Source of the DNA: Micavibrio aeruginosavorus
GTDB taxonomy: Bacteria > Pseudomonadota > Alphaproteobacteria > UBA9219
Reading direction: 5' to 3'
DNA length: 35,664 nt
Assembly: GCA_020720905.1 (NCBI GenBank)
Contig: DYNT01000001.1
Coordinates: 1 to 35,664 of the forward strand
The notes under the pieces are model-generated. The model was not told where the DNA came from. It did no database searches and was given only the letters and a program-made list of their open reading frames with translations. Position 1 is the stretch's first letter; every line of letters begins with the position of its first letter. The position numbers and the translations under genes are program-made. This document shows, one piece after another, positions 1-19,792 of the stretch.

Positions 1-1337
1 GGATCAAAAATCAAGCCGCTGTCCAAGCCGTTATTGATGTTGTGGTGTCCCTTTCTACTTTGTTTAGCTCCCTTTTTGACGAGACGGAGGAGAAGCTGGC
101 CTCTGATACGCGTGCGCTTTTATATGGGCAGATGGTTAACGCTAAGGTTGAAGAAAGCCTGACGCAGGCGCGCATTGATGGGGGGACGCTCAATACTTTT
201 CGTCGTGCCTCGGTTGCTACCACCATGCAGGGAACGACTCCTAAAAACGAATACTTATGCAAAAAGATTGCGGCGCATCAGCTGACGACAACGACGCAGG
301 ACTTTGAAAAAGAAGTGTCGCGTATGGCCGCCGAGGCGATCAGCAATCGCTATCGTTGTCCAACGTGTGATGGTTGGGGGCCTGATTATGTTGGCAAAGA
401 ATCGGCGCGGCGGTGCGCGCAAGGGTATGGCAATCCCTCGATTGATGGTGCCAAGGCGAGCTGTGAGAAAAAGCTGAGTGATGGGCGAAGCCTTGCTGAC
501 GCCGATCTTGCGCCGCTTGATGAGGGGCAGAGTTATCAGATGCCCAAAATGATTTCCAAGGCCTATACCGATAGTGTAACGGGAGCCAGTCTGGTTGTCA
601 GCGTCCCTGATCCTCAAAATGATCAACAGCGTTTATGGGGTGCGGCTTGGGATAACATCTTCTTGTTGGCGGGGCCACGCCCTACGCCTCGGCATGGGAA
701 AGGGATGAAGACGCCTGTTGGCAAGGTGGAGCGCACCCTGTTCAATCATTGTTTGTCGAGCCAAAACGCCCTTATCAAACAATGCACGGATTTGTTGGCT
801 TATTACACGCGGCCCAATTGTGAAGAAATGCCAGCCTTGTGCGAGGCGCAACAAGAAAAATGTTTGGCTGCGACGAAGATTATTGATTTAGCTCCCTTCG
901 ATCAATGTGAAAAAGGGCTTAGTGCTTACGAAGAGGAGAAGATAAACCAACTTCTTTGCAACAGTACACAACATTATACGGACATGGTTCATGCGGGTTC
1001 GACTTATGATCTTTTGACGGGGTCTAGTGATCTTTGTGACGCCTCTTGGTCACGATGGCGCACGGTTGTGGACAAAAAACACGCGCATTGCACGGCAGCC
1101 ATCGATGGGCTGCAACGGTTAGCATCCTGTTGGGGAGCCGTTGATTCGCTTGGTCGTGGCTCTGCGGCGCTTGAGGATGGGCTGGCAGGCGATGGTTCTT
1201 CCGTTGTGCGCGCTTCGCAGCCGGCGATGGGTGTGCCCATTTATAAGGCCAAATGGTCAACACAGCCGCGACAAAAGGATGCGCTGTCATTCGATGCGGC
1301 AGAACGCGATCCCTTATTGCAAGCTGTTAGCCCATGA
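1..1337 (+). CDS. Secreted Cys-rich paralog A, unknown family (5' end outside window; reading frame starts at nt 3)
   Basis: The frame is open from nt 3 with no upstream stop. The GTG at 42 in the ORF track is probably not the true start. It aligns along its length with the three downstream paralogs, sharing motifs PKNEYLC, QNxxQRxW...LAGPRPT, C(T/A)DLLAY(Y/H)TRP and GLSAY. It carries a C-terminal tail with VVRASQP. Confidence 0.8.
   Translation, partial: IKNQAAVQAVIDVVVSLSTLFSSLFDETEEKLASDTRALLYGQMVNAKVEESLTQARIDGGTLNTFRRASVATTMQGTTPKNEYLCKKIAAHQLTTTTQDFEKEVSRMAAEAISNRYRCPTCDGWGPDYVGKESARRCAQGYGNPSIDGAKASCEKKLSDGRSLADADLAPLDEGQSYQMPKMISKAYTDSVTGASLVVSVPDPQNDQQRLWGAAWDNIFLLAGPRPTPRHGKGMKTPVGKVERTLFNHCLSSQNALIKQCTDLLAYYTRPNCEEMPALCEAQQEKCLAATKIIDLAPFDQCEKGLSAYEEEKINQLLCNSTQHYTDMVHAGSTYDLLTGSSDLCDASWSRWRTVVDKKHAHCTAAIDGLQRLASCWGAVDSLGRGSAALEDGLAGDGSSVVRASQPAMGVPIYKAKWSTQPRQKDALSFDAAERDPLLQAVSP
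254..874 (+). repeat. Copy 1 of 621-bp near-identical block shared by paralogs A and B
   Basis: Offset by 1558 nt to 1812-2432. I found one mismatch (C271 vs T1829). The forward protein and both antisense ORF translations in the track are identical apart from that site. Flanking sequence diverges abruptly. Confidence 0.9.
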
Positions 1338-1356
1338 GGCGGTTGGTGGAAAAAAG

Positions 1357-2736
1357 ATGAAAACACTATCAACTCTTTTTTTAAGAGCGATTCTCGTTGT
1401 TATCGTTGCCTTGAGCTCTGGGCTGATGAACCTTGGCATAGATCCTTATGCGGGAGGTCTTGTCCTAACGGGTCCTCGCGCAAGCGCTGCGGAAGTTATT
1501 TTTAATCCCTTTAAATTGGCGGCCAATCTGGTGCAAGCGGCTGCGGAAAAAGCGAAAGAGGTTATAGAAGAAAGCAATCTGGCAAGTATTATTAGTGGCA
1601 TGACAGGGGTTTATGATCTTCTTGTGGATCAATTTCAAGAATTGAATGATGCCATGAAAGAGAGCTCTCAAGCAAAAAATGCGGCTTTACAGGTTGATGC
1701 GGTGATGGAGATAACCTCTATGCAAGCCCAAATAGATGCGGCAACATCCAATACTCTTTTGAAGGCGCAGTTGGACACCTTGTCTCAAGGGGGGGCTCCT
1801 AAAGGTGAGTATTTATGCAAAAAGATTGTGGCGCATCAGCTGACGACAACGACGCAGGACTTTGAAAAAGAAGTGTCGCGTATGGCCGCCGAGGCGATCA
1901 GCAATCGCTATCGTTGTCCAACGTGTGATGGTTGGGGGCCTGATTATGTTGGCAAAGAATCGGCGCGGCGGTGCGCGCAAGGGTATGGCAATCCCTCGAT
2001 TGATGGTGCCAAGGCGAGCTGTGAGAAAAAGCTGAGTGATGGGCGAAGCCTTGCTGACGCCGATCTTGCGCCGCTTGATGAGGGGCAGAGTTATCAGATG
2101 CCCAAAATGATTTCCAAGGCCTATACCGATAGTGTAACGGGAGCCAGTCTGGTTGTCAGCGTCCCTGATCCTCAAAATGATCAACAGCGTTTATGGGGTG
2201 CGGCTTGGGATAACATCTTCTTGTTGGCGGGGCCACGCCCTACGCCTCGGCATGGGAAAGGGATGAAGACGCCTGTTGGCAAGGTGGAGCGCACCCTGTT
2301 CAATCATTGTTTGTCGAGCCAAAACGCCCTTATCAAACAATGCACGGATTTGTTGGCTTATTACACGCGGCCCAATTGTGAAGAAATGCCAGCCTTGTGC
2401 GAGGCGCAACAAGAAAAATGTTTGGCTGCGACAGGATTTTTGGACTTGGCGCCTTACAAAGATTGCGGAAAGAATGGCGCGATCACGGCTTGGCAGGGAT
2501 TAAGCGCCCATGAGACAGAACAAATTAATCAATACTTGTGTAAGAGCGAGCAGAATAACAATAATTTACTGCAGGAGGGGGCTCAGCACAAAGATTTGAT
2601 TTTGGATATGGCTTATCTTTGTTCCTTGTCCGAGCAGGCGTGGAAGGAATCGGTGGCGCTTAAACATGAAAATTATCGCGCAGCAACGCAAGGATTGCAA
2701 AAGCTTTCCACCTGTTGGGCTGCTGTTGGGAAATAA
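1357..2736 (+). CDS. Secreted Cys-rich paralog B, unknown family
   Basis: ATG at 1357 lies 6 nt after GGTGGA and encodes MKTLSTLFLRAILVVIVALSS, a signal-like hydrophobic N-terminus. The longer 1141 start overlaps the tail of paralog A and was rejected. The central 207 aa are identical to paralog A except one residue. There are about 14 Cys. The protein ends right after CWAAVGK. Confidence 0.85.
   Translation: MKTLSTLFLRAILVVIVALSSGLMNLGIDPYAGGLVLTGPRASAAEVIFNPFKLAANLVQAAAEKAKEVIEESNLASIISGMTGVYDLLVDQFQELNDAMKESSQAKNAALQVDAVMEITSMQAQIDAATSNTLLKAQLDTLSQGGAPKGEYLCKKIVAHQLTTTTQDFEKEVSRMAAEAISNRYRCPTCDGWGPDYVGKESARRCAQGYGNPSIDGAKASCEKKLSDGRSLADADLAPLDEGQSYQMPKMISKAYTDSVTGASLVVSVPDPQNDQQRLWGAAWDNIFLLAGPRPTPRHGKGMKTPVGKVERTLFNHCLSSQNALIKQCTDLLAYYTRPNCEEMPALCEAQQEKCLAATGFLDLAPYKDCGKNGAITAWQGLSAHETEQINQYLCKSEQNNNNLLQEGAQHKDLILDMAYLCSLSEQAWKESVALKHENYRAATQGLQKLSTCWAAVGK
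1812..2432 (+). repeat. Copy 2 of 621-bp near-identical block shared by paralogs A and B
   Basis: See copy 1. Confidence 0.9.
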
Positions 2737-2804
2737 GCCGGTTTGGTGGTTGTCAGGGCGCTATGTTGTAGATGGGCTCTCTATGAGATAAAGGGGTAGG
2801 AGGA

Positions 2805-4352
2805 ATGATAATGCGAGCTATCAAAAAGACGATGTTGGTTCTTTCTCTGATCCTTTGTTTTTTAATGGGGGGAAGTTTTCTGAATCCAACGCCTGCTTAC
2901 GCCGGAAGCCCTGTCGTTACGGATCCTGCTAATTTTGCTGCGACCATGATGGAGTGGGGCGAGCGCTTGGCGGCGATGGCGAAAAAGAGCGCTCTTCTTG
3001 GACAGATTATTTCTTTGATCACATCCGTTCATAACATTATCAATAGCGGCTTTTCTGCCATGACGGATTCAACAAAACAGGATACAAAGCTTAATATCGC
3101 AGGACAACAGGGGCTTGCGCTTATCAAACAGGAAGGCGCGCAGGCTTGGATTGATAGCGATACGTCGGATGCTCTTCTTGCGGCGCAACTTAAGCTTGTG
3201 GCCGATCACGTTGCGCCTAAAAATGAGTATTTATGCAAGGCGACGTTGTTGAATCAATTAACGGGAACAACGGAAGATTTTGAGCGTGGCGTTGCCAGAT
3301 TGGTGCTTAAGGCTATTGAAAGTACAGGCCGTGGCCCAATGGATGATTATGATGGCCCCCAATATGCTTTCGATGAAGAAACCTTGCGCGGCGCAGCAGG
3401 CTTTGGCAATAGTGTTGTGGATGGTTATGATGCGGCTTATAGCGATACCAGCACGACTGTTGGGCCGACCAAGCGGCTTTTTATTGATGCCGATTTGATG
3501 CCTTTTTCGATGGATGGCGCTGTGCCGCTTGAATTGCCACAGTTTACAGCCAAGGCGGTTAATCTTCCCAGCGGAACAATCGTCTCGGCAAGCGTTCCTA
3601 CGCCCCAAAATGAAAATCAAAGAATGTGGCTTGCGGGACTCTACTATTGTTTTCAGCTTGCAGGGCCTCGCCCAACGGCCTCTTGGGGGGACAAAATGAC
3701 GACTCCCCAAGGTCTTGTCGAAAGGGCTCGTTTTGATCATGCCTTAGCCATGCAGAGCGCGATGATTAAGCCTTGTGCGGATTTGTTAGCTTATCATACG
3801 CGTCCGGATTCAAAGGATCTTGCTTCAGCGCCCCTTATCAAGGCGCAACATGAAAGTTGTGCTGCGGCGAAGGGGTATATAAGCGACGAGGATATGAAGG
3901 AAAAATTCAGCAATTGTTTGTCCGATGATTTTAAGGGAATGAGCGCTTATCAGGCAGAGCTTTTAAGCCATTCGATTTGTAAAAGTGAACACCACGCTAT
4001 CTCTTTAAGGCAAGCAGGTGCTACGCCGCCTGAATTGATTAATGACACGATCAAATGTTCTGCGGCGTGGAATACATGGCAGGCTAAGGTTTCTGCTAAA
4101 CAAGGATCTTTGGTTGATGTCGTCGCAGGGATTCAAGAAACCAAAGGCAATTGGGGGGGGATAGGCAATAACATTGCGGGATTGGCGGAACAGGAGAAGG
4201 ACAAGGCTCATCGTGTTGTTAGGGCTTCAAAGCCCAGTCATCAGCCTCCCGTGGCGCAAGACATTAAAGCGCAGAAAATCCCGTTGCTTCCTCGGCATGG
4301 AATTCCCTTTGCGGCGGATGAAGTGACATGGCCTATGGCCGTGTCGCAATAA
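2805..4352 (+). CDS. Secreted Cys-rich paralog C, unknown family
   Basis: A strong RBS (AGGAGGA) precedes the ATG at 2805 (or 2811). The signal peptide ends AYA|GSP. It shares motifs with A, B and D: PKNEYLC, PQNENQRMW..QLAGPRPT, CADLLAYHTRPD, GMSAYQAE. The C-terminal tail carries VVRASKP. Confidence 0.85.
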   Translation: MIMRAIKKTMLVLSLILCFLMGGSFLNPTPAYAGSPVVTDPANFAATMMEWGERLAAMAKKSALLGQIISLITSVHNIINSGFSAMTDSTKQDTKLNIAGQQGLALIKQEGAQAWIDSDTSDALLAAQLKLVADHVAPKNEYLCKATLLNQLTGTTEDFERGVARLVLKAIESTGRGPMDDYDGPQYAFDEETLRGAAGFGNSVVDGYDAAYSDTSTTVGPTKRLFIDADLMPFSMDGAVPLELPQFTAKAVNLPSGTIVSASVPTPQNENQRMWLAGLYYCFQLAGPRPTASWGDKMTTPQGLVERARFDHALAMQSAMIKPCADLLAYHTRPDSKDLASAPLIKAQHESCAAAKGYISDEDMKEKFSNCLSDDFKGMSAYQAELLSHSICKSEHHAISLRQAGATPPELINDTIKCSAAWNTWQAKVSAKQGSLVDVVAGIQETKGNWGGIGNNIAGLAEQEKDKAHRVVRASKPSHQPPVAQDIKAQKIPLLPRHGIPFAADEVTWPMAVSQ

Positions 4353-4370
4353 AGGCAAAGGAACACAAAG

Positions 4371-5783
4371 ATGAGCGTTTGGCCTGCAATAAAAAAGTCC
4401 TTGCAAAGAGAGGATAGAAAAAGAAAGAAGCCGCGTAAGAGGCTGTCTTTCTTTTTTGTGCTAACGGTCATTTTTTTTGTTTTTAGCATAATGTGGCCGC
4501 TGCAGAGCTATGCCATTAAGAATGGGGATACGCCCGTTAGTGCCCAAGAAAATGCTTATACAACCGCAAGTGTTTTACAGGAATTTGCCGATTTTTCGAC
4601 GGAAAATGGATCGTGGGCGTCAATTAAGGCGGGATTCACAACGGTCATGACCACCTTTCAGACTCTTATGAAAAAGTTCTGGGACTTTCATGGCCAATCG
4701 ACTGTTGGGAAATTAACGGCACAAAGGCTTCAGGCGACCATAACGACAGAAGCGTGGCAAGCTGCGTTGGATGCCAGTACCGAGAACGCCGTTCTTGAAG
4801 AAAAAATGAAACATTTAGCGGATCATATCATGCCACCTGCTTCAGAACAGTTTCTGTGCAATCTTATTCTTGCGCGGCAAGGCGTGCCCGTTATGACCGA
4901 GTTTGCGCGTATTATTTCCAAGGTTGTGGCCAAGGGTATTGATGCCCGTTCCCGTAGCAGGGGGAGCGATGGCAATGGTCCGCAATATGCCATGGATGCG
5001 TGGAACATCAAGTGCGGCAAGTATGGCGCTGACAGACCTAAAACAGGGAATGCTATTGATGGTGTGCCAAAGGCATGCCGTGCAGAAGAAACGGCACCTG
5101 CCATTGGCTATGCTGGTGGCGATGTGAGCATGGACACGTTAAGCCGAGAAAAGGTTTATACTGTGCCGCCTGTTAAAGAAGAGACCATGATGATTAATGG
5201 AAAGATGGAAACGGTTGCAGACTTTTTTCCTGATAAAAACAGTAAAGACTATGAAGCGCATCGGCAATGGCTTATGGCGCGGCAATATTGTTATAATCTT
5301 GCTGGCCCGCGCCTTACCCCTCCGCGTGACGAAGATCTGGATACGCCCGCAGGAAAGGCCAATTTCACCTTGTTTACAAGCTGCCTATCACGGCAAAGCG
5401 CTTTTGTTAAAGCTTGCACGGATCGTTTGGGCAAGTTAACGCGACCCGATTGTTCCACTGATGACTTTAAGGAGTTTTGTGACGCCTCTATTCAAGCGTG
5501 CGATGCAGCGCGTGAGTCTCAAATTGTGCTGCCTCCTGAATTTAATAACTGTCAAAGTGGGCTAAGTTTGTATCAGGCGGAATATCTTTCAAACGCTCTT
5601 TGTGGCTCAACGCGTCGCCTTCAAGCTGATACACATGGTGGGGAGCAGGATCATAAAAAGGTCAGTACGCTGTTAATGTGCCAAATCATGAGGGAAGTGT
5701 CAGAGAAACGACAGCAGGAAGAAGATAAGGCGTTTGTAAGAGCCGTGCAGGGGATGCAGAATATGAAGGGGTGCTGGGACTAG
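4371..5783 (+). CDS. Secreted Cys-rich paralog D (most divergent), unknown family
   Basis: The N-terminus is basic, followed by a hydrophobic stretch ending QSYA|I, which looks like a signal peptide. It retains EQFLC, NLAGPRLT, CTDRLGKLTRPDC, GLSLYQAEYL and a terminal GCWD. There are about 13 Cys. Confidence 0.8.
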   Translation: MSVWPAIKKSLQREDRKRKKPRKRLSFFFVLTVIFFVFSIMWPLQSYAIKNGDTPVSAQENAYTTASVLQEFADFSTENGSWASIKAGFTTVMTTFQTLMKKFWDFHGQSTVGKLTAQRLQATITTEAWQAALDASTENAVLEEKMKHLADHIMPPASEQFLCNLILARQGVPVMTEFARIISKVVAKGIDARSRSRGSDGNGPQYAMDAWNIKCGKYGADRPKTGNAIDGVPKACRAEETAPAIGYAGGDVSMDTLSREKVYTVPPVKEETMMINGKMETVADFFPDKNSKDYEAHRQWLMARQYCYNLAGPRLTPPRDEDLDTPAGKANFTLFTSCLSRQSAFVKACTDRLGKLTRPDCSTDDFKEFCDASIQACDAARESQIVLPPEFNNCQSGLSLYQAEYLSNALCGSTRRLQADTHGGEQDHKKVSTLLMCQIMREVSEKRQQEEDKAFVRAVQGMQNMKGCWD

Positions 5784-5904
5784 GGAGCCTTTTGCACGCT
5801 TCGTTAACCAAATAAACGCTATGCTCATGCCCTAAGTGGACAGAGGCGGCTTCGGCATGGCAGACTATGGTTCACTATAGAGAACATTTTTAAATGGATG
5901 CGCC

Positions 5905-6747
5905 ATGGTTACGATAACATCAAATGAATCGGAAAAAGACGTAAGTGCCCATCTTCAAACGATGGTGGCTTCTTTTCGTCAAGTCGGTCTGCCTCTTTTG
6001 CAGGCGATGGTTGACGTTTCTGGAAGCGGCGCGGCTGAGGCAGAAAGTGTCCAAGAGCAGCGCATGGGGGATTTAATTGAGTGTGCCGTTCTTTTGAGCC
6101 GTGAACTGGCCAAAGAAATGGGCGCTGATGAGGGGGCTCTTGCCCCATCCGTGCGGTGGAATTTGGCCGGATCGGCAAGTCAGATCGTAGCGGCCAACTA
6201 TCAAGCGACGGGACAGGTTCTATCGGCCGAGGCTATAGCGCGGCTTGTTCATATTGCTACGACACTTCAGGAAAAATTTAAAAGTCAGATCCCTGTTGGC
6301 GGAGAAACACTTCCCAATACCGTTGCGACGTTTCGCGCTAAGATGATGGAGGGGTTTGTTCCTGTCATTGGCGCTGTTGCCCAATATGCTTTTGGTCGCG
6401 CCGAACATGACTTATTGGCCGAAATTTCAGAAAGGCTTGTCAAGACAGCCGAGCAAGTGACGCGAACGCTTGCCGCACCTGGTTCGTCTCCTGAACAGTG
6501 GCGTCTTTTGTGTTGGACCATTCTGCGGGCGGCGGGACAGATTTATACGGAAAGTCATTATGCTGAGGCGGATCGTTTGAACGCCATGGCTCCCGATGAT
6601 CAAGCGGACTACTTTGCGCAGCATAGCTCAGCTGTTCCTATGACACAGGTTTGGCAAGCTTTTAATCAGCGCATGGCGATGCTTGCGACGTTGTCCTCTT
6701 ATTTAGAGGTTCCCCCTTCTGCTCATTTAGAAGATCAAGGGTGGTGA
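5905..6747 (+). CDS. Hypothetical cytoplasmic protein (no signal peptide, acidic, Ala/Leu-rich)
   Basis: A 280-aa ORF fills the gap between paralog D and the transglycosylase gene. It is co-directional and ends 4 nt before the next start. I recognise no motif. The RBS is weak. Confidence 0.55.
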   Translation: MVTITSNESEKDVSAHLQTMVASFRQVGLPLLQAMVDVSGSGAAEAESVQEQRMGDLIECAVLLSRELAKEMGADEGALAPSVRWNLAGSASQIVAANYQATGQVLSAEAIARLVHIATTLQEKFKSQIPVGGETLPNTVATFRAKMMEGFVPVIGAVAQYAFGRAEHDLLAEISERLVKTAEQVTRTLAAPGSSPEQWRLLCWTILRAAGQIYTESHYAEADRLNAMAPDDQADYFAQHSSAVPMTQVWQAFNQRMAMLATLSSYLEVPPSAHLEDQGW

Positions 6748-6751
6748 TCTT

Positions 6752-7207
6752 ATGCTAACCGCTCAAGCCCTTGCCGCTTGTATGATGCTTGCTTCGCAAA
6801 CGTATCATGTTCCGCCAGCTGTGATGGTGGGCATTATGCACGTTGAGGGGGGGCGCGTTGGGCAACAGGTTGGTCCCAACAGCAACGGAACGTATGATCT
6901 GGGCCCCATGCAGGTTAATACACGGTGGATCCCTCAATTGGCTCACGCTTGGGGCGTTGATAAAAAAGTTGCGCATCGGCTTCTTCGTGACGATGGCTGC
7001 GTCAATGTTCGTGTTGCCGCTTGGATCCTTGGCCAAAAAATAAAAGAAGCAGGGTCTCTTTATGGGGGCATTGCTTACTATCATTCGGCAACGCCTGGCA
7101 TTGGACCTCGTTATGCTGCCAAGGTTATTGCCGTGATGGAGCTCAAGGGGCTTATCAAACGGGGCTATGCAAAAACGAAGAATCAGGCTTACTATGCACA
7201 GCGTTGA
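6752..7207 (+). CDS. Lytic transglycosylase, SLT domain (VirB1 / TrbN / R64 PilT-like specialised peptidoglycan hydrolase)
   Basis: Motifs IMHVEGGR (candidate catalytic Glu), NSNGTYDLGPMQVN and AYYHS match the pattern of secretion- and pilus-associated SLT enzymes. The size is 151 aa. Confidence 0.85.
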   Translation: MLTAQALAACMMLASQTYHVPPAVMVGIMHVEGGRVGQQVGPNSNGTYDLGPMQVNTRWIPQLAHAWGVDKKVAHRLLRDDGCVNVRVAAWILGQKIKEAGSLYGGIAYYHSATPGIGPRYAAKVIAVMELKGLIKRGYAKTKNQAYYAQR

Positions 7208-7262
7208 TTCTTTTTTGATTCCCTAACACGCTTTTCCCCTATGCAAGAGGAGATTTAAGACG

Positions 7263-8252
7263 ATGAGAATAACCCGTTTTTTAAGAATGATGGTTGGCAG
7301 TGTTGCCCTGTTGGTGAGCGGGGCTTCTTTTGGTTTTGCGCAAGCGCCTTCTGATATAAGCGGGCCTTCTTCCCTTTTTAACATCAATGTGCGTCCCCCT
7401 GATATTAACGCGATACCTGTTTTAATGAATCTTGTGAAAAGTGGTGGGAAATTATATTTTCTTGGTGAACGCTCTGGCATGCTTGGTTGGTTTATCATTA
7501 AGGATGGGCAGGTTCAGATCATCTATTTGTCTCCAGATAAGCAAACGGCGTTGATCGGTGGCATGTTTTCGGCGCAGGGAGAGAATGTGACTTCGCCTCA
7601 AATTAGTGCCTTGGTTGAAAAAAACACCGAAGTCAAGGCTTTGTTGTCGGGAACAGCGCAACAACAACGTGAAGTTTATAATGCGGGTGCGCCAGATGGC
7701 GCTGGCTCTGTTCCAGCTGGAGAACACAAGGCTGAGGCCGCCTCTCAGGGAGGGGCGAGCTTAGGGGGATTGCCGTCAGCGGCTTTGTCTCCTGGGGAAC
7801 GCCTTATGCAGGATCTTAAGGCTGCGGCTGGTGTGACGATGGGGCAGAATGAATCGGCTGAATTGATCATGGTTGCGGCTCCTGACTGCCCTAATTGTAA
7901 GAAAACATGGATGGAATTGCGAGATTCTGTTCGGAATAACAAGATTCAGGTGCGTGTTGTTCCCGTTTATAACAGTACGGGGGAGGGCGAGATTCGCGTT
8001 GCTGCGCAGCTGCTTAAAACGGCCAATCCTCTTGAGGCATGGGATCGTTATGTTGAGGGCGATGCTGCGGCTTTAGCTGGAGAGCCTGACGACATGGCGC
8101 GCCGCGCTGTTATAGGCAACCTTAATCTTGTCGCAAAGTGGAACATTCAAGGGTATCCCTATATGGTTTATCGGGGGAAGGATGGCCGAATCAAGATTGT
8201 GCAAGGGAAGCCAGAGCGCATGGCGGCTGTGTTGACGGACTTAAGTCGTTAA
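7263..8252 (+). CDS. Periplasmic DsbC/DsbG-like thiol:disulfide isomerase (TrbB-like)
   Basis: It has a signal peptide (ASFGFAQA). A DsbC-type N-terminal dimerisation region is followed by a thioredoxin fold with a CPNC active site (APDCPNCKK). The downstream GYPYMVY is a candidate cis-Pro loop. Confidence 0.8.
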   Translation: MRITRFLRMMVGSVALLVSGASFGFAQAPSDISGPSSLFNINVRPPDINAIPVLMNLVKSGGKLYFLGERSGMLGWFIIKDGQVQIIYLSPDKQTALIGGMFSAQGENVTSPQISALVEKNTEVKALLSGTAQQQREVYNAGAPDGAGSVPAGEHKAEAASQGGASLGGLPSAALSPGERLMQDLKAAAGVTMGQNESAELIMVAAPDCPNCKKTWMELRDSVRNNKIQVRVVPVYNSTGEGEIRVAAQLLKTANPLEAWDRYVEGDAAALAGEPDDMARRAVIGNLNLVAKWNIQGYPYMVYRGKDGRIKIVQGKPERMAAVLTDLSR

Positions 8253-8264
8253 CAGGGGGAGGAT

Positions 8265-8549
8265 ATGGGGTTTTTAAGCAAGCCATCCAAGTTTTCCAAG
8301 GGAAGGGCTCTGCTGCCTTCTCTTGATGTTAGGGGGCGTGGCGGACTGCAAACCTTTCTTTCCTTTCCAAAGGGAAAGGACGAAAAAATTCCTAATGCCT
8401 CTTTGGTTTATGGTATTTTTTCTGCCGCGCTGCTGTCTTTTTCCCTTTATCATTTGTTTACCGGCTTATGGTTTACTGCCTTCTTGTTGTGTGTGGTGGC
8501 CTTGATTGTTTTTGGGTTTTCTCTCTATTTTCTCCGCTATTCAGGGTGA
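8265..8549 (+). CDS. Small inner-membrane protein (2 predicted TM helices), unknown function
   Basis: A good RBS (GGGGGAGGA) precedes the ATG at 8265. There are two long hydrophobic segments in the C-terminal half. It is co-directional and tightly packed. Confidence 0.55.
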   Translation: MGFLSKPSKFSKGRALLPSLDVRGRGGLQTFLSFPKGKDEKIPNASLVYGIFSAALLSFSLYHLFTGLWFTAFLLCVVALIVFGFSLYFLRYSG

Positions 8550-8661
8550 ATAATTCGTGGAAGAGCCTATAATCAGGGAGCCTGATTATAGTAAAACTAA
8601 GAACGGTCTTCCTTCTGCTGAAGGGAGGCGTCAAGGCGTTATCTTTATGATGGTGGATGTG

Positions 8662-9159
8662 ATGACAATGATAAAAATCATGCCAATGGTGGCGTTGTTG
8701 GGGGTTGGCGTTCTTGTATCGGGGTGTGTTACATCGACGAGCATGACCCCTGTTGCGACGGAGCCTGATGTTGTTAGTGTGCGTTTGGCACAGGCAGCAG
8801 AAAAAGCCTCGAATGCGCTGGATTCTCTTTCTGGTATTGAACAATACCGTGAACCACAGCTTCCTGCGCCTGATGATTATTCTTCTGCGCCGCCTTCTCT
8901 AACGCAACTTATTTCCATTCAGTGGTCGGGGCCTATTGATCAAATCTTGCAAACGTTAGCAACGCGGGCAGGAATGCGTTATAGAACGATCGGAAGCCCA
9001 TCGGGCGTTCCCCTTCTTGTCAATCTAGACGTTTATCAAAAGCCGTTGATTGAGGTTCTTCACGACCTTGGCCTTCAGGCGGGGCGTCGGGCCGATGTTT
9101 CGGTTGATAACATCAATAACTCGATAGAGATCCGCTATGCACCTGTTGACAGAATCTAA
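8662..9159 (+). CDS. dotD: DotD / TraH-like outer-membrane lipoprotein (T4BSS core component family)
   Basis: Lipobox LVSGC. The C-terminal region is WSGPIDQILQTLATRAGMRYRTIGSPSGVPLLVNL...IEVLHDLGLQAGRRADVSV...IEIRYA. It tracks Legionella DotD (WSGPIEEL...FRFRVLGKSPSVPVLISI...YQAGKKASIHV...VELRYA, from memory). I chose the start at ATG 8662, after GGTGGA. The ORF is open from 8557. Confidence 0.85.
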   Translation: MTMIKIMPMVALLGVGVLVSGCVTSTSMTPVATEPDVVSVRLAQAAEKASNALDSLSGIEQYREPQLPAPDDYSSAPPSLTQLISIQWSGPIDQILQTLATRAGMRYRTIGSPSGVPLLVNLDVYQKPLIEVLHDLGLQAGRRADVSVDNINNSIEIRYAPVDRI

Positions 9160-10009
9160 TCCATCTAAAAGCCGGCGTCTTCTTTTGGCGCCCCTTTTTA
9201 TCGCAATCCTTTTTGCGTTGAGCGTTTCTGGGGCGTTGGCGCAACAAACGGTGGCGACAGAGGCCTCGCCACCTCCGCCTGTTCTAAAAGATTTGCAGGA
9301 ACAAAGTAGCGGCGAAGACTCTGGAAAAACAGATGTGATGGGTTTGCAAATCAGGCATGATGCTTTGCGTGAAGCGGCTCTTTCCTATGGCGCTCGTGGC
9401 GGGTTGGCTTATCGCACTTTTGAAATCCAAAGGCGTCTTGTTGAACATGAGGCGAGTCTTTCAAAGATTTTTAATTTTACACGGTTGTTGATTAGTGCCC
9501 CCTCTGGTCTACTTATTGAGCCGCCCATTGTCAGCGAAGCGCAGCGTGCCGTTATCGTCAATGGTGGGGGGCAAGAAGCGGCTGTTTCGGATCGCGTTTT
9601 GCGAATCAACAAAGCGGCTCGTATTGTAACGGCTCCGCGTAATTGGCTCCTCTATTTAGAGCGCGACTGGGGCACTGTTGATGCGCCTCCAGGGCTGTTG
9701 CTTCCTCGCAATGATGAGGAGCGCGCCCAATGGAAAACTTTAGTGCAAGAGGGGTGGAATGCGGGCGTTGCGCAAGCCGAGGAGACCTTTGAATCTGATC
9801 TTGATCGGATGACCAATGATTATATCGGGATGGTTCATTATCGCACGTTGTTGGTGCAAGGGATGATTTCTCCCCCTTATGCGATGCATGAAGATCGTGG
9901 CGTAACGGGTGGCGGTTCTGAAATGAGGGTGGGTGATCGTGGCGTTTCGATCACGGGGCCTTCTGTTCTTATTCCTCGGAGCGATAAGTGGACAACGGCA
10001 CTCCGTTAA
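9137..10009 (+). CDS. dotC: DotC / TraI-like periplasmic/outer-membrane T4BSS core protein
   Basis: It has a signal peptide. Motifs LREAALSYGARGGLAYR, IEPPIV and MISPPYAMHEDRGVTGGGSEMRVGDRGVSIT closely resemble DotC (LKETALSVGAQAGLAWR, ILPPVL, MVSPPYVSHTDLGVTGDGSEIHIDDRVLRIT, from memory). It overlaps dotD by 23 nt. No lipobox is seen. Confidence 0.85.
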   Translation: MHLLTESNPSKSRRLLLAPLFIAILFALSVSGALAQQTVATEASPPPPVLKDLQEQSSGEDSGKTDVMGLQIRHDALREAALSYGARGGLAYRTFEIQRRLVEHEASLSKIFNFTRLLISAPSGLLIEPPIVSEAQRAVIVNGGGQEAAVSDRVLRINKAARIVTAPRNWLLYLERDWGTVDAPPGLLLPRNDEERAQWKTLVQEGWNAGVAQAEETFESDLDRMTNDYIGMVHYRTLLVQGMISPPYAMHEDRGVTGGGSEMRVGDRGVSITGPSVLIPRSDKWTTALR

Positions 10010-11250
10010 ATCTCAGTGTGGACGATTTTCAGGTTCGACTTGCGGCGGGTTGGACTAATGAGCCTGTGCGCATTCAAGAAGAACACATAGATGATCTCTT
10101 ATTATGGTGTGTCCATAGCCGCGCTACCGATGTCAGCATTCAAACGGATCGCCCTATTGTTATCGAAGTGGACGGTGTTCTCTATCCCATAACGCAGCGA
10201 GCCATGGATTCGGCGGATATGGCCAATATCTTGATGCGTATTTATGGGCCTGAAGCTTTGGCGAAACTGGCCTCTGGCGTTGATTTGGATCTATCTTATG
10301 AGGTTAGGCCTGAGCGTTTAACACGTTATCGTTTTCGTACCAATATCACGGCTATTTTAAGTCGTGGGCGTGATTCTGTCCAAATTACATTGCGCAGTTT
10401 GCCTGGATTGCCCCCAAGTATGGTTGATTTGGGAATAGAAGAGCCCATTATACGGAACTGGTCGCCGCGACAGGGCTTGATTTTAGTAACGGGGCCTACG
10501 GGAAGTGGGAAAACAACCCTTTTGGCTTCGGGATGCCGAATGCTGATTGAGAGAGAACAGGGCTCCGGCAAGCTTCTAACGTATGAAGCACCTATCGAAT
10601 ATGTTTATGACAGCATTACGGGGCCGCGTTCTCTTGTGGCTCAATCGGAAGTGCCGCGCCACATCCCCTCTTTTGCGGCAGGGGTGCGTAATGCTTTGCG
10701 TCGCAAACCTAACATCATTCTTGTGGGTGAGGCTCGTGATAGGGAAACGATGTCGGCGGCCATTGAGGCAGGACAAACGGGGCATTTGGTTTTTTCAACG
10801 GTTCATACTGTGGGCGTTGCCGCAACGGTAAGGCGTATTGTCAGCGTTTTTGAGCCCGCAGAACGAAGCGAACGCGCTTTTGCCTTAATGGAAACATTGC
10901 GCATGGTTGTGACCCAAGCGTTGGTTCCTAAAGTGGGGGGGGGGCGCATTGGATTAAGGGAATATTTGGTTTTTGATGACAACATTCGAGAACAACTTTT
11001 AGATATGCCTGTTGATAAATGGACGCTGGAGACCCAGCGCTTTCTTGTTCGCTATGGGCAAACGATGCAACAATCCGCTAATAGGGCGTTTAAGCAAGGG
11101 CTTATTGATCGCAGAACGTATCTGGTTTTAACAAAAGGTTATACGATCGATGAGGGGGATTATGACCCTTCTGTTGCCGATCCCATAGAAAAAGAGCCCG
11201 ATCATGATCTTGAAACGATACCCGATGATGATGATACGACGATGATTTAA
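9988..11250 (+). CDS. dotB: DotB / TraJ-like PilT-family hexameric secretion ATPase
   Basis: Walker A is LVTGPTGSGKTT, Walker B is IILVGEARD, and the His box is GHLVFSTVHT. It sits directly after dotD-dotC, as in the Legionella dotDCB operon. The GTG start overlaps the dotC end. The C-terminal tail is acidic (PDDDDTTMI). Confidence 0.85.
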   Translation: MDNGTPLNLSVDDFQVRLAAGWTNEPVRIQEEHIDDLLLWCVHSRATDVSIQTDRPIVIEVDGVLYPITQRAMDSADMANILMRIYGPEALAKLASGVDLDLSYEVRPERLTRYRFRTNITAILSRGRDSVQITLRSLPGLPPSMVDLGIEEPIIRNWSPRQGLILVTGPTGSGKTTLLASGCRMLIEREQGSGKLLTYEAPIEYVYDSITGPRSLVAQSEVPRHIPSFAAGVRNALRRKPNIILVGEARDRETMSAAIEAGQTGHLVFSTVHTVGVAATVRRIVSVFEPAERSERAFALMETLRMVVTQALVPKVGGGRIGLREYLVFDDNIREQLLDMPVDKWTLETQRFLVRYGQTMQQSANRAFKQGLIDRRTYLVLTKGYTIDEGDYDPSVADPIEKEPDHDLETIPDDDDTTMI

Positions 11251-11290
11251 AAAGGGGGGGGCTGCTTTTTGCTTCCTAAAAGGAGAGACA

Positions 11291-11557
11291 ATGGACATTC
11301 ATTGGAGAAACACACAAAAGCCCGTTCGCTTTCTCTTTCTTGATGCGCGTGCCTTTTTTGGCGTTATTCTTTTCCTTGTTCATGCTAGAATGTGGGTTTT
11401 CGTTCTCGTTTGTTTTTATATTTTTATGTTTTGGCTTTTTGAAAAGCGCGGTCTGTCTTTTGAATCGGCTGTGCGAGCGATTCGTTGTTGGGCTCTAGGG
11501 CGACGGCGTCCCGCGAACAGCCGTCGAGCGATTCGAAACATGGTCGATTTTTCGTGA
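11291..11557 (+). CDS. icmT: IcmT / TraK-like small inner-membrane T4BSS protein
   Basis: An 88-aa protein with RBS AAGGAGAGA. The sequence HWRNTQKPVRFLFLDARAFFGVILFLVHARMW..., one TM helix and a basic C-terminus resemble IcmT (HWRDSARTP.FFF.D..AAFP.VLFLLHIR.W, from memory). Its position after dotB matches traH-I-J-K order in IncI plasmids. Confidence 0.75.
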   Translation: MDIHWRNTQKPVRFLFLDARAFFGVILFLVHARMWVFVLVCFYIFMFWLFEKRGLSFESAVRAIRCWALGRRRPANSRRAIRNMVDFS

Positions 11558-11563
11558 GGCTAT

Positions 11564-11594
11564 CCTTCTCGTGAATGAAGGGCTGGTTTTTTTT
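11564..11594 (+). terminator. Weak candidate intrinsic terminator after icmT
   Basis: A 5-bp stem CCTTC/GAAGG (11564-11568 / 11577-11581) has an 8-nt loop. It is followed 5 nt later by T8 (11587-11594). The stem is short. Confidence 0.3.
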
Positions 11595-11921
11595 AGGCTC
11601 CCTTGCCCAATTTTTTAAAACGATAGCCTCTCCACCTTTCTCCTACGCTGCTTCGCAGCTTCGGCGCGGTAGGTCGCGGGGATGACAACGGGATCCTTTG
11701 TCCCTTTGTGAACCAACGTATGGTTGGATTGCTATAAACACGGCTTGTCATTTTGATGGAGAAACGAAAGGGATTCTTGTTTTTTCAAAGCGTGGCGGTG
11801 TGTCTAAAAATACACACTCTTCTGTTGAATGGTGTCGGGGCGATTCGTCTTAGGTTGCTCTCCTTGCGTTCATCCTTTAAGCTTTCTTGCGAATCGCCTT
11901 CGCTCGAAAAAGGGCCTAGAA

Positions 11922-12929
11922 ATGCAAAAAAACAATCGTCGTTCTACCATTCTTTTCCTCGGATACCTTCCTCTTGTCGCTGGGGCTTTGTTGTCAACAA
12001 CGCCAGCCTATGCAGGGTTTAAGTGGGTTTCCTCGGATGCGGTGCAAAGCACCAATGTCTCTGTCACGCCGCAAGCCGCGCCGGCAACAGGTTCTGTTCC
12101 CACTTCTTTCGGGGGGGCAGAAGCTGTTGTTATTGAGTCTGCGCCCGCTTCACAAGAAGCCGCGTTTTCGACTCTTGCAAAAGAAAAGTCAAAGACGCCT
12201 CATGATGATGTTGTCGTCAAGGGGTTTGCTGATCGTGTCCCCCTTTCTGTCGCGTTGCGTCAAGTTTTGCCGCCTGAAATCGGCTTCTCTGTCGCTCAGG
12301 ACGTTAGTTTGGGAACGCCTGTTTCTTGGCGGGGCGGGGCGCCTTGGCGTCAGGTTTTAAAAGATATGCTGTCGCCATCTGGTTTGACCATGCGTGAGCA
12401 AGGGCAAATGGTTCATGTTGTTCATATGACAGAGGGACAGGATTCGGCGTTGTCGTTGGACAAGCCCCTTCCCCCTGTTTCAGGGAATGGGAAACCGTTG
12501 TCTTTGTTGCCGTCCCTTTCTGCTGTTGCGCCTAAGTCCGCTGGCTCTTCGCCTGCGCCCTTGGCGTCATCCTCTGGTTTTTTGAGTGCGCCGAACGCCC
12601 TTGCGTCTGGCGTGGAGCGCTCCCCAGTTGTGGCTGACTCGTCAGCCGCTGGTTTGGGGGCTTGGCAAGCTAACAGCGGGGACATGCTTAAAAAGACGCT
12701 TGAGACATGGGGGCGGAACGCCAATGTTGAGGTTAGCTGGCAAGCTGAATACGATTATCCTGTTCAGGCCTCTGTTTCTTTTTCGGGAGATTTCGAAGGG
12801 GCTGTTCGCAATCTTTTGTCTGGATTTCAAGAGGCAAAGCCACAGCCGGTGGGGTACTTATATAACAATCAGTCTGCTGGTCAGACCGTTCTTGTCATCC
12901 AAACGCGCGGTAATAATTACAGCGAATAA
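11922..12929 (+). CDS. pilL: PilL-like type IVb pilus biogenesis protein (TcpQ-type C-terminal domain)
   Basis: The signal peptide ends PAYA|G. The linker is long and Ser/Pro/Ala-rich. The C-terminal WQANSGDMLKKTLETWGRNANVEVSWQAEYDYPV...FSGDFEGAVRNLL is typical of the PilL/TcpQ domain. It lies immediately upstream of the pilN secretin, as in R64/SPI-7. The start is taken at ATG 11922; the ORF is open from 11829. Confidence 0.75.
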   Translation: MQKNNRRSTILFLGYLPLVAGALLSTTPAYAGFKWVSSDAVQSTNVSVTPQAAPATGSVPTSFGGAEAVVIESAPASQEAAFSTLAKEKSKTPHDDVVVKGFADRVPLSVALRQVLPPEIGFSVAQDVSLGTPVSWRGGAPWRQVLKDMLSPSGLTMREQGQMVHVVHMTEGQDSALSLDKPLPPVSGNGKPLSLLPSLSAVAPKSAGSSPAPLASSSGFLSAPNALASGVERSPVVADSSAAGLGAWQANSGDMLKKTLETWGRNANVEVSWQAEYDYPVQASVSFSGDFEGAVRNLLSGFQEAKPQPVGYLYNNQSAGQTVLVIQTRGNNYSE

Positions 12930-12941
12930 TGAGGCCTAAAC

Positions 12942-14543
12942 ATGAGCTTCCGTCATCTTGCCCTTTTCTTGGTTGTTATTGCGCTCTTGGGCTGTAATAA
13001 TGAAAAAAACAGGAACCTTATTGATCAGCGTGTCGAGAGGGTAGAGCGCGTTGCTAAAAAAGCAACGCTCCCTGCGCCTCCCAAAAGCTATGATCCTCTT
13101 ACGGTTTCAGACAAGGTTTGGTCTGGCAATTCGTCAACGCGTCTTCGTCGCGGCATTCCTTTGCCAGGCAAGTATGAAGGCTCTTATGGCGTGACCCTTA
13201 TTTCAAGTGAGCCCCTTTCGTTGAGCGAGATTGGATCGGCTGTTGGTGTTCAAACGGGCTTGCCTGTGCGCATTGCTTCTGGTGCAGCGGGTGGGTTGGG
13301 TGATGGTGATAATGGTACGGGCGCAATGGAAGGCAAGATGCTCGTTTCTTATGAAGGGCCGTTGTCTGGCCTTTTAGATTTGGTCTCGGGTAACTTTGGC
13401 ATTAGTTGGCGTTTTGATGGCACGGCGATCAAGCTTTCTCGTTTTGAAACGCGCGTGTTTGTCGTTGAATCGTTACCTGGAACGCAGTCCATTAAGGATG
13501 GCATAAAAGAAGATTCGGGAAGTAGCGGCGGGAGCAGCAGCACTTCTAGCGCTGGCGGAAGTTATAGCATGAGCTCTAGCAGTTCCTTGCAGCAATCTTC
13601 TGAAATGAGCGTTGAGATGAAGGTATGGGATGAGTTGGAGAAGACCCTTTCTTCGATTTTGGGTGGGGTTGGTTCGGTTTCTCTTTCGCCCTCTAGTGGG
13701 ACGGCTGTTGTGACAACGACACCGGAGCTTATGCAAGTTGTTGCCAAATTTATGGAAGAGGAAAACCAGCGTTTATCACAACAAATTGCCATCAATGTTG
13801 AAATTTATACGGTCGCTCTTTCCGATAATGCAGACTTTAATGTGACGTTTACTTCTGCGTTGAAGAAAATTAGCAGCGGTCTTGATCTTAATATCACGCA
13901 AGGCGTGGCGGGATTGGGATCTGCGGCGGTTTCTGATGGCGCATCTATGTCGCTGGCTATTTTGGATCCGAATAAGACAGGGCAGATTACAAGCGTGTTT
14001 TCTGCCCTCTCTTCCATTGGGGATACGACGCGCGTTTCCCAATTCCCTCTAACAACATTGAATAATCGTACGGTCTCTCGCCGTATTGGTGAAGACGTGA
14101 CCTATGTTGCGGCTATTTCAAAGACGGTTGGAACCTCAACAACCAGCGAGTCGGTCACGGTTACGCCTGGAACGGTTCGTGATGGGTTTTCGCTGCAGTT
14201 GACCCCCCGTCTTTTGCAAGATGGCCGTATCATGTTGCAGTATTCGCTTAGCTTGATCGATTTGCTCCAGCTGGTTGAATTTAATACTGGGGATGCTGGC
14301 AATGTTCAATTGCCACAAACGGCAAGCCGTGTTTTTGTTCAGCAAGCCATGCTCAAGAGCGGATCAACGCTCATTTTAGGTGGCTATGATGATGAAAAGA
14401 CAAGCCAGTCCTCCAATGGTGTTGGGAATGCTTACAACTACTTCCTTGGGGGTGGTTCTTCGAATGATAAAACGCGCACCATGATGTTTATTGTCATTAC
14501 ACCACAAGTCGTGAGCGTTCAGAAAACGGAGCAAATTGAATGA
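12942..14543 (+). CDS. pilN: PilN-type lipoprotein secretin of type IVb pilus
   Basis: Lipobox LLGC|N. The C-terminal secretin domain reads ...STLILGGYDDEK...NYFLGGGSSNDKTRTMMFIVITPQVV. There is an internal Ser-rich low-complexity stretch. Size and position match R64 PilN. Confidence 0.9.
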   Translation: MSFRHLALFLVVIALLGCNNEKNRNLIDQRVERVERVAKKATLPAPPKSYDPLTVSDKVWSGNSSTRLRRGIPLPGKYEGSYGVTLISSEPLSLSEIGSAVGVQTGLPVRIASGAAGGLGDGDNGTGAMEGKMLVSYEGPLSGLLDLVSGNFGISWRFDGTAIKLSRFETRVFVVESLPGTQSIKDGIKEDSGSSGGSSSTSSAGGSYSMSSSSSLQQSSEMSVEMKVWDELEKTLSSILGGVGSVSLSPSSGTAVVTTTPELMQVVAKFMEEENQRLSQQIAINVEIYTVALSDNADFNVTFTSALKKISSGLDLNITQGVAGLGSAAVSDGASMSLAILDPNKTGQITSVFSALSSIGDTTRVSQFPLTTLNNRTVSRRIGEDVTYVAAISKTVGTSTTSESVTVTPGTVRDGFSLQLTPRLLQDGRIMLQYSLSLIDLLQLVEFNTGDAGNVQLPQTASRVFVQQAMLKSGSTLILGGYDDEKTSQSSNGVGNAYNYFLGGGSSNDKTRTMMFIVITPQVVSVQKTEQIE

Positions 14544-16574: not shown

Positions 16575-16692
16575 AGGATTTATTGACGAACCGATGCCTA
16601 TACTTTGTTGCGGTATGTTCGCCCTGCTCTAAGCTCTAAGGATTGGTGACCATGGTTGTTGCTGGGGCGTGATCACAGGATTGGTTTGACTC

Positions 16693-19775: not shown

Positions 19776-19792
19776 GGAAAAAGGATAGTACG

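What the first reader, a model, noticed from the sequence alone, without database searches (positions are those of the whole stretch)
254..2432. 621-bp block with a single mismatch shared by paralogs A and B inside otherwise diverged genes: a recent gene-conversion mosaic
Seen: nt 254-874 equals nt 1812-2432 (offset 1558) except C271 vs T1829, which gives Ala vs Val. Identity ends abruptly on both sides.
- On the left, PKNEY vs PKGEY already differ at several bases.
- On the right, from nt 875/2433, the proteins continue as KIIDLAPFDQCEKGLSAYEEE vs GFLDLAPYKDCGKNGAITAWQGLSAHETE.
- By eye, identity there is only roughly one third.
- The N-terminal thirds are likewise dissimilar.

Inference: the central domain has been homogenised recently by gene conversion or unequal recombination between tandem copies. 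The N- and C-terminal modules remain distinct. This pattern is expected for cassette-like shuffling or concerted evolution of a functional core with variable ends. It is also a potential assembly-collapse hazard.
Basis: seen in the sequence. Interest (0 to 1): 0.65.

Follow-up and report, generated by a model that had tools for sequence, protein, structure and literature searches.

The report
Gene-conversion tract between tandem secretion-system paralogs
Two neighbouring copies of an uncharacterised secretion-system gene share a 620-base central stretch that is almost letter-for-letter identical while their ends are old and different, which is an ordinary recent gene conversion, and it already misleads one public assembly.

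Summary
The block is 255-874 = 1813-2432: 620 nt with one mismatch (C271/T1829, Ala/Val) and 603 nt perfect. Position 254/1812 also differs. Flanks are about 46% identical.

The two genes, A and B, are the first two of four tandem paralogs (A-D). [quoted passage not shown]

Two related genomes carry orthologous A and B. There the N- and C-terminal parts group by paralog, with bootstrap 77-100. Only the window's central blocks group with each other (bootstrap 100). Synonymous difference is 0.01 in the block against 0.6-0.7 (saturated) in every other pair. This is a recent, lineage-specific gene conversion, and the donor cannot be determined.

Caveat: a Logan assembly of run SRR1560848 starts at the same base as the window. 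It joins the A N-part, the block and the B C-part directly, dropping 1558 bp. This is either repeat collapse or a real deletion hybrid. Reads are needed to decide.

The phenomenon is well known. The family has no Pfam, NCBIfam or PDB match. Its confident predicted fold has no match either. Only a short N-terminal segment resembles VirB5.

The parts
1..1337 (+). Paralog A. It is 5'-truncated by the contig end, with about 77 codons missing by comparison with L001/L002 orthologs. N module 1-254, converted block 255-874, C module 875-1337 with a long C-terminal extension.
   Evidence: ORF and translation. Alignment with orthologs L1_A and L2_A. N and C segments fall in the A clade, bootstrap 100 and 99.
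255..874 (+). Block copy 1, the central domain of A. It carries C271, the A-specific variant.
   Evidence: 620 nt, one mismatch to 1813-2432; 272-874 is perfect.
875..1812 (+). Unique 938-nt interval between the two block copies: A C-terminal module, 19-nt spacer (1338-1356) and B N-terminal module. With one block copy it makes the 1558-bp unit that is absent from Logan contig L012.
   Evidence: L012 equals window 1-874 and then window 2433 onward. Orthologous sequence is present in L001 and L002.
1357..2736 (+). Paralog B (459 aa from the ATG at 1357). The database gene call starts at 1294 (480 aa, P0001). It has a signal peptide, then N module 1357-1812, block 1813-2432 and a short C module 2433-2736.
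   Evidence: L2_B starts at the equivalent Met. N and C segments fall in the B clade, bootstrap 77 and 100.
1813..2432 (+). Block copy 2, covering B residues 153-359. In the AlphaFold model this is the central alpha/beta domain lying between the long N-terminal helix (75-145) and the C-terminal helices (384-458). It carries T1829.
2805..4352 (+). Paralog C (database call 2811-4352, 513 aa, P0009). It is not involved in the conversion; its centre is about 53% nt identical to the block.
4371..5783 (+). Paralog D (470 aa), the most divergent of the four and not involved in the conversion.
7263..8252 (+). DsbG/DsbC-like periplasmic thiol:disulfide isomerase. It fits with disulfide-rich exported neighbours.
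   Evidence: NCBIfam PRK11657 DsbG, E 7e-23. Pfam Thioredoxin_2, weak.
8557..11250 (+). DotD (8557-9159), DotC/TraI (9137-10009) and DotB (9988-11250). These type IVB secretion core genes define the locus.
   Evidence: Pfam DotD 5.5e-26, T4SS_TraI 2e-70 and T2SSE. TIGR02524 DotB 6e-119.

Best explanation
A and B are adjacent, anciently duplicated members of a four-gene tandem array (A-D). The genes encode Sec-exported, cysteine-rich proteins belonging to a chromosomal Dot/Icm-like type IVB secretion locus of an uncultured Micavibrio-like alphaproteobacterium. In the window's lineage only, a homologous-recombination event copied the central domain of one gene onto the other. This was a non-reciprocal gene conversion, or an equivalent double crossover between sister copies. 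The tract is about 620 bp (B residues 153-359). It happened so recently that only one or two substitutions separate the copies. The N- and C-terminal modules were not transferred and keep their old, paralog-specific sequences. In the model these modules are the long terminal helices. The tract ends where homology falls to about 45-50%. Shown here: the identity, the sharp boundaries, the orthology of the flanks, the incongruent segment trees and the unsaturated synonymous sites. Inferred: a RecA-type mechanism, and that the boundaries are set by loss of homology and/or by selection to keep matched N and C helices. The donor is undetermined. One consequence is that two 603-bp perfect direct repeats 1558 bp apart are now a substrate for unequal crossing-over (deletion hybrids, amplification) and for assembly collapse. 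One of these two is seen in Logan contig L012.
For: Identity and boundaries are. Orthologous four-gene arrays occur in L001 (Logan SRR18595301) and L002/L009 (MAG 'Micavibrio sp. IMS_BF', DYDA01000004). Segment identities: N, W_A-L1_A 65% nt against W_A-W_B 44%; C, W_A-L1_A 69% and W_B-L1_B 72% against W_A-W_B 48%; centre, W_A-W_B 100% against 69-72% to all four orthologs. Bootstrap splits over 100 replicates: N, A clade 100 and B clade 77; C, 99 and 100; centre, W_A+W_B 100, with L1_A+L2_A 100 and L1_B+L2_B 98. Nei-Gojobori pS in the centre is 0.01 for W_A/W_B but 0.61-0.71 for every other pair, including A versus B within L001 (0.69) and L002 (0.67). Nucleotide-level constraint therefore cannot explain the identity. 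A versus B centres are only about 70% identical in L001 and L002 and 75-79% in short patches in L010. The junction A-N to block and the junction block to B-C are reproduced by an independent assembler (L012). The junctions block to A-C and B-N to block are in the window, and the B-specific bases T1812 and T1829 lie next to the B-N junction.
Against: No reads could be mapped. Both assemblies appear to come from one short-read run (SRR1560848), and a 603-bp repeat exceeds HiSeq 2000 read length. Bubble-popping or the 98%-identity merging of the original JGI pipeline (PMC4288042) could have erased a few real differences inside the block. 'One mismatch' is therefore a lower bound on the true divergence. 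That the window's contig comes from that JGI assembly is my inference. No second sample or strain carries full-length B. Diagnostic A/B sites inside the block are mixed (19 A-type and 18 B-type, interleaved). The block pair joins the B clade in only 62% of replicates and the A clade in 28%, so a simple one-donor story is not demonstrated.
Confidence: 0.8

Rival explanations
1. Assembly artefact. The true genome has either a single hybrid gene (A N-part, block, B C-part, as in Logan contig L012) or two genes whose centres differ. On this view the window's two identical blocks were created when short-read contigs were merged through a shared repeat.
For: L012 starts at the same base as the window. 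It is identical to window 1-874 and then jumps to window 2433, omitting 1558 bp. Run SRR1560848 was originally assembled with SOAPdenovo at several k values, then Newbler, then minimus2 at 98% identity with 80-nt overlaps (PMC4288042). That is a chimera-prone procedure, although the window's derivation from it is my inference. Two SNPs between L012 and the window (window 8631 and 8730) show strain heterogeneity in the sample.
Against: Logan contigs cannot contain any 31-mer twice by construction (PMC12424806). A collapsed representation is therefore forced whatever the truth is. The omitted 938-nt interval is real DNA with orthologs of the expected divergence in L001 and L002. It needs a central domain on both sides, and the window's order reproduces the ancestral A-B synteny exactly and in frame. 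If the centres were about 30% diverged as in relatives, no assembler would merge them, and L012's unbranched path from A-N to B-C could not exist.
Confidence: 0.1
2. Both structures are real. The population in the cave biofilm is polymorphic. Some cells carry A plus B. Others carry a deletion hybrid, produced by unequal crossing-over between the two identical blocks. This adds to the conversion explanation rather than replacing it.
For: The L012 hybrid ORF is in frame and was called as a 391-aa product. Perfect 603-bp direct repeats are efficient recombination substrates (established knowledge). Strain-level SNPs exist in the sample. Deletion hybrids of paralog pairs arise repeatedly in E. coli evolution experiments (PMC13626634, listed; abstract only read).
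Against: Logan's distinct-31-mer rule and graph simplification can produce L012 without any real deletion. No coverage data are available.
Confidence: 0.25
3. The identity reflects extreme purifying selection on the DNA itself, for example an embedded RNA, an antisense gene or a regulatory element, rather than recombination.
For: The block duplicates a 123-aa antisense ORF (255-626 and 1813-2184).
Against: Orthologous centres in L001 and L002 are saturated at synonymous sites (pS 0.6-0.7). There is no Rfam hit in the window. The antisense ORF is simply a by-product of the repeat.
Confidence: 0.01
4. A recent segmental duplication, rather than conversion, created the second block.
For: The arrangement is tandem with a fixed 1558-bp period.
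Against: A tandem duplication would copy the whole 1558-bp unit. Here 938 bp of the unit is unique. A and B flanks each have their own orthologs in other genomes, so both genes predate the event.
Confidence: 0.02

Closest known systems
Concerted evolution of tandemly duplicated type IV secretion genes in Bartonella Trw (trwL = virB2; trwJ-trwI-trwH = virB5-virB7). Source: Nystedt et al. 2008, Mol Biol Evol 25:287, as cited and summarised in PMC2610397.
   Same: Both have tandem paralog arrays inside a type IV secretion locus in an alphaproteobacterium. Both encode exported components. In both, recombination homogenises parts of the copies while other parts stay variable. The window's family also shares a short VirB5-like N-terminal motif (hhalign probability 79%).
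   Different: The window's system is type IVB (Dot/Icm/IncI-like), not type IVA. The protein is about 450-530 aa with an unmatched fold, not a roughly 230-aa VirB5. Only one recent tract in one lineage is seen. Diversifying selection was not tested and synonymous sites are saturated.
Classical bacterial gene conversion between paralogs, for example tufA/tufB in Salmonella and rRNA operons. This comparison rests on my own knowledge and was not checked in papers here.
   Same: A RecA-type non-reciprocal transfer gives a near-identical tract with sharp ends inside otherwise diverged duplicates.
   Different: Those cases homogenise whole genes continuously. Here only a 620-bp internal domain is affected, and only in one lineage.
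IcmX of the Legionella Dot/Icm system (PDB 9NGY; PMC12501162) and its reported IncI counterpart TraW of R64. The IcmX-TraW correspondence is from my own memory.
   Same: The size is similar (466 aa) and so is the order of parts: signal peptide, N-terminal helix, middle 'extended' domain and C-terminal helices. Both are encoded in a type IVB locus and both are exported to the periplasm.
   Different: There is no detectable sequence or fold match. A 96-sequence profile against PDB found nothing. Foldseek with a pLDDT-87 model found nothing at E<0.1. hhalign against R64 TraW gave probability 0.1%. In IcmX the helices are the conserved part, whereas here the centre is conserved and the helices vary. 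No DotA/TraY gene lies next to the array.
Chimeric genes formed by deletion between paralogs in E. coli evolution experiments (PMC13626634, listed; abstract only read).
   Same: The L012 structure is exactly such a hybrid: the N-part of one paralog fused to the C-part of the next, within a shared stretch.
   Different: Here it may be only an assembly shortcut, and no phenotype is known.

Membership tests
Gene-conversion tract between paralogs | A near-identical internal tract with abrupt boundaries inside otherwise diverged duplicates, beyond chance | tested here: met
   620 nt at 99.84% identity against 46% outside. The longest shuffled run was 51 nt, against 603 observed.
Gene-conversion tract between paralogs | Phylogenetic incongruence: flanks group with orthologs while the tract groups with the paralog in the same genome | tested here: met
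   Bootstrap: N 100/77 and C 99/100 for the A and B clades; centre W_A+W_B 100.
Gene-conversion tract between paralogs | Synonymous sites are homogenised, so protein-level constraint cannot explain the identity | tested here: met
   pS is 0.01 in the tract against 0.61-0.71 in all other pairs.
Gene-conversion tract between paralogs | Both copies physically verified by reads or clones spanning each copy | not testable with these tools
   No read mapping was possible. The only other assembly (Logan L012) cannot hold a repeat twice.
Concerted evolution (recurrent homogenisation across lineages) | Independent recent tracts in related genomes | tested here: not met
   A versus B centres are 69-71% identical in L001 and L002, and 75-79% over fewer than 200 nt in L010. 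A and B centres form separate clades in L001 and L002.
Dot/Icm-type (type IVB) secretion locus | DotD, DotC/TraI, DotB and IcmT genes in one cluster | tested here: met
   Pfam and NCBIfam hits. IcmT_2 is called on the orthologous 88-90-aa gene in L004 and L013. A distant family member, P0085, sits in the same context.
VirB5/TrbJ family (PF07996) | Match to the family model over the helical bundle | tested here: not met
   No Pfam hit at E<=1 in 22 members. Foldseek listed no VirB5/TraC structure.
VirB5/TrbJ family (PF07996) | Signal peptide followed by the mature N-terminal PVxD-type motif that leads into helix 1 | tested here: inconclusive
   hhalign of the family against a 44-sequence VirB5 alignment gave probability 79% and E 1.6e-5, but over only 37 columns. 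Four or five weak NCBIfam hits to TrbJ/VirB5 models were found among about 100 members.
IcmX/TraW | Sequence or fold similarity to IcmX (PDB 9NGY) or to R64 TraW | tested here: not met
   Searches found nothing. This assumes 9NGY is in the PDB copies searched, which I did not verify.
IcmX/TraW | Gene adjacent to DotA/TraY | tested here: not met
   No DotA-like gene lies next to the array in the window or in L001-L007.

The most novel reading that the evidence does not exclude
The four-gene array may encode interchangeable VirB5/IcmX-position components (channel tip or adhesin) of a predator's type IVB machine. On this reading the head domain is kept uniform by conversion while the paired terminal helices diversify. 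Recombination between the identical heads would then generate hybrid genes, such as the one in L012, in natural populations. That would be a simple recombinational variation system for target or prey specificity, analogous to Bartonella trwJ amplification or the R64 PilV shufflon.
Probability: 0.1. Interest if true: 0.6.

Novelty: new member of a known kind. Interest (0 to 1): 0.35.

Why it matters
As biology it is a clean, datable example of domain-limited gene conversion in a secretion-system paralog array. That is useful but unsurprising. Practically, it flags a place where public assemblies of the same reads disagree: two genes in one, a fused hybrid gene in the other. Catalogues built from such contigs will contain a possibly fictitious chimeric protein.

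The more interesting by-product is the gene family. About 160 clusters at 50% identity have no annotation. The predicted fold is confident and has no solved relative. The genes hold a conserved position in Dot/Icm-like loci of Micavibrio-like bacteria and carry a VirB5-like N-terminus. The family is a candidate for the missing tip or channel component of these systems.

Tried and rejected
- Pfam, NCBIfam and PDB sequence searches with single proteins and with profiles of 22 and 96 sequences found nothing significant.
- Foldseek against PDB found nothing at E<0.1, with either a pLDDT-67 or a pLDDT-87 model.
- hhalign against R64 TraW and TraF found nothing.
- No plasmid match was found by megablast or tblastn, so this is not a known plasmid.
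- Exact-product look-ups for B (459 and 480 aa) and for a guessed partial A C-terminal product found no other contig.
- The genome-contig scan found only two related loci, L009 (the same record as L002) and L010. The metagenome-contig scan found one distant locus, L011. Neither found a close strain.
- Donor direction could not be resolved. Diagnostic sites are 19 to 18, the tree placement is 62 to 28, and GC and GC3 are uninformative.
- A nucleotide-level functional element was rejected: no Rfam or tRNA hit, and orthologs are saturated at synonymous sites.
- One rooted-tree support table gave misleading values after re-rooting. It was replaced by explicit split counting.
Full report
**Observation.** At offset 1558 the window matches itself from 255 to 874 (= 1813-2432) with a single mismatch, C271/T1829 (GCG Ala versus GTG Val).
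- Positions 272-874 (603 nt) are perfect.
- Mismatches resume immediately at 875/2433.
- In a codon alignment of the two genes, identity is 99.84% inside the block and 46.0% outside it over 526 nt.
- By segment, the N part is 44% nt / 27% aa identical and the C part 48% nt / 41% aa.
- Shuffling the difference positions 10,000 times never gave a perfect run longer than 51 nt.
- No other long repeat exists in the window.

**What the genes are.** The window opens inside gene A (..1337). It is followed by B (1357-2736), C (2805-4352) and D (4371-5783). All are on the + strand, 13-68 nt apart, and mutually alignable.
- B, C and D start with signal peptides.
- The family has several invariant or nearly invariant cysteines, at B residues C154, C329, C355, C370, C395 and C422. 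It also has motifs such as YLCK, LAGPRPTP and YYTRPNC.
- Downstream lie a 280-aa unknown protein, a lytic transglycosylase, a DsbG/DsbC-like isomerase, DotD, DotC/TraI, DotB and an IcmT-like gene.
- Next comes an R64-like type IVb thin-pilus cluster, and then a Tad/Flp pilus cluster on the other strand.
- The family has no Pfam, NCBIfam or PDB sequence match.
- An exhaustive profile search finds 161 clusters at 50% identity in 1.8 billion representatives.
- A distant member sits in the same DotD-DotC-DotB context.
- Related loci are chromosomal, next to groES/groEL. They carry three or four paralogs. One is labelled 'MAG Micavibrio sp.'.

**Structure.** With a 96-sequence alignment, AlphaFold2 gives mean pLDDT 87 and pTM 0.70.
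- The model has a signal peptide, a roughly 70-residue N-terminal helix (75-145), a central alpha/beta domain and long C-terminal helices (384-458).
- The block corresponds to residues 153-359, which is most of the central domain.
- Foldseek against PDB finds nothing at E<0.1.
- Weak NCBIfam hits are enriched for TrbJ/VirB5 models.
- hhalign against a 44-sequence VirB5 alignment gives 79% probability (E 1.6e-5). The match covers only 37 columns at the mature N-terminus: a PVxD-like motif and the start of helix 1.
- The order of parts resembles the published description of IcmX: signal peptide, N helix, extended domain and C helices, 466 aa (PMC12501162). No sequence or fold similarity was detectable.
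- I therefore treat 'VirB5/IcmX-position component' as a lead, not a classification.

**Why it is gene conversion.** L001 (Logan SRR18595301) and L002 (DYDA01000004) carry orthologous A, B, C and D genes.
- N segment: W_A groups with L1_A and L2_A (bootstrap 100), and W_B with L1_B and L2_B (77).
- C segment: the same grouping, at 99 and 100.
- Central segment: W_A and W_B are sisters (100), while L1_A+L2_A (100) and L1_B+L2_B (98) remain separate.
- Proportional synonymous difference in the centre is 0.01 for W_A/W_B. It is 0.61-0.71, which is saturated, for every other pair, including A versus B within L001 and within L002.
- Both genes therefore predate the split of these lineages. The centre is not under nucleotide-level constraint. 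The window's lineage alone has very recently replaced one centre with the other.
- The donor cannot be named. Of 43 nucleotide sites that distinguish the A and B centres in L001 and L002, the block has 19 A-type, 18 B-type and 6 other, interleaved.
- The block pair joins the B clade in 62% of replicates and the A clade in 28%. GC content is uninformative.
- In all lineages the A and B centres are closer to each other than their ends are (dN 0.24-0.28 against 0.44-1.0). This may reflect stronger constraint or older exchanges, and saturation prevents a decision.

**The assembly issue.** A look-up of paralog C's exact product returned Logan contig SRR1560848_8863 (L012, 7185 nt).
- L012 begins at exactly the window's first base and is identical to window 1-874.
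- It then continues as window 2433-8743, differing there at only two positions, window 8631 and 8730.
- It is thus an in-frame fusion of the A N-part, the block and the B C-part, lacking the 1558-bp unit.
- A second Logan contig from the same run matches window 9008-12561 perfectly.
- SRR1560848 is a sulfidic cave-biofilm metagenome from Frasassi/Acquasanta (HiSeq 2000). It was originally assembled with SOAPdenovo, Newbler and minimus2 (PMC4288042).
- The window very probably derives from the same reads. This is my inference from the shared contig end and the sequence identity.
- Logan contigs hold every 31-mer only once by construction (PMC12424806). They therefore cannot represent two block copies, and L012 does not prove a deletion.
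- Conversely, the window's two-copy order is the only arrangement that uses the unique 938-nt interval. That interval has proper orthologs elsewhere, and the order reproduces the ancestral synteny.
- The two assemblies together show all four junctions: A-N to block, block to A-C, B-N to block and block to B-C.
- What cannot be shown without reads is whether a few interior differences were erased by bubble-popping, and whether deletion hybrids really exist in the population.

**Verdict.** The interpretation as recent gene conversion is supported at about 0.8 confidence.
- The mechanism is textbook. The closest specific precedent is the concerted evolution of tandem trwJ/trwL copies in the Bartonella Trw system (Nystedt 2008, via PMC2610397).
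- Recurrent 'cassette' behaviour is not supported, because the relatives lack recent tracts.
- Interest is moderate to low for the conversion itself. The unannotated family, conserved in Dot/Icm-like (type IVB) loci and with an unmatched fold, is the part most worth following.

Noticed in passing
L012 (Logan SRR1560848_8863) against window 1-8743: A public contig fuses the A N-part, the block and the B C-part, omitting window 875-2432 (or equivalently 255-1812). It starts at exactly the same base as the window. A chimeric 391-aa 'protein' is called from it.
   Followed up: yes
window 8631 and 8730: These are the only two differences between L012 and the window outside the repeat. They lie just before L012 ends (window 8743). 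This suggests strain-level variants in the sample that break the k=31 graph.
   Followed up: partly
window 1 (contig end): Two different assemblers end at the identical base inside gene A. This points to a data-determined end, either a coverage drop or a branch point such as another variable or repeated segment upstream in A. The first 77 or so codons of A are missing.
   Followed up: no
window 1357-5783, and family-wide: The paralog family has a confident AlphaFold model (pLDDT 87) with no PDB fold match. Its mature N-terminus gives a local VirB5/TrbJ-like profile match (hhalign 79%).
   Followed up: partly
window 11829-21011: An R64-like type IVb thin-pilus cluster lies directly after dotD-dotC-dotB-icmT. 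It comprises a TcpQ/PilL-like gene, a secretin, PilO, an ATPase, a T2SSF protein and two overlapping prepilin-like ORFs (19703-20419 and 20307-21011). This is an IncI-like gene order, but on a chromosome.
   Followed up: partly
window 23456-32055 (- strand): A complete-looking Tad/Flp pilus cluster: two TadB/C-like genes, a TadA ATPase, a ParA-like TadZ, an RcpA secretin, RcpC/CpaB and a prepilin peptidase. The region therefore carries three envelope-spanning machines side by side.
   Followed up: no
L004 463-835 against 854-1226: In a more distant relative (the locus also found in GCA_009929575.1), two adjacent small genes (126 and 134 aa) upstream of groEL are 90% identical over 373 nt. This is another young tandem duplicate or conversion in the same neighbourhood.
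   Followed up: no
L003, L004-L007 against window, L001, L002, L010: The array has three paralogs in some genomes and four in others. The A/B pair corresponds to a single gene in the three-paralog loci. The A/B duplication is therefore younger than the C and D splits but older than the window/L001/L002 divergence.
   Followed up: partly
window 255-626 and 1813-2184 (- strand): Identical 123-aa antisense ORFs appear in the ORF list only because the block is repeated. There is no evidence that they are genes.
   Followed up: yes
window 1294-1356: The database gene call for B (P0001, 480 aa) starts 21 codons upstream of the ATG at 1357 and overlaps the end of A. The 1357 start has a GGTGGA ribosome-binding-like motif, places the signal peptide at the N-terminus and matches the L002 ortholog.
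   Followed up: partly
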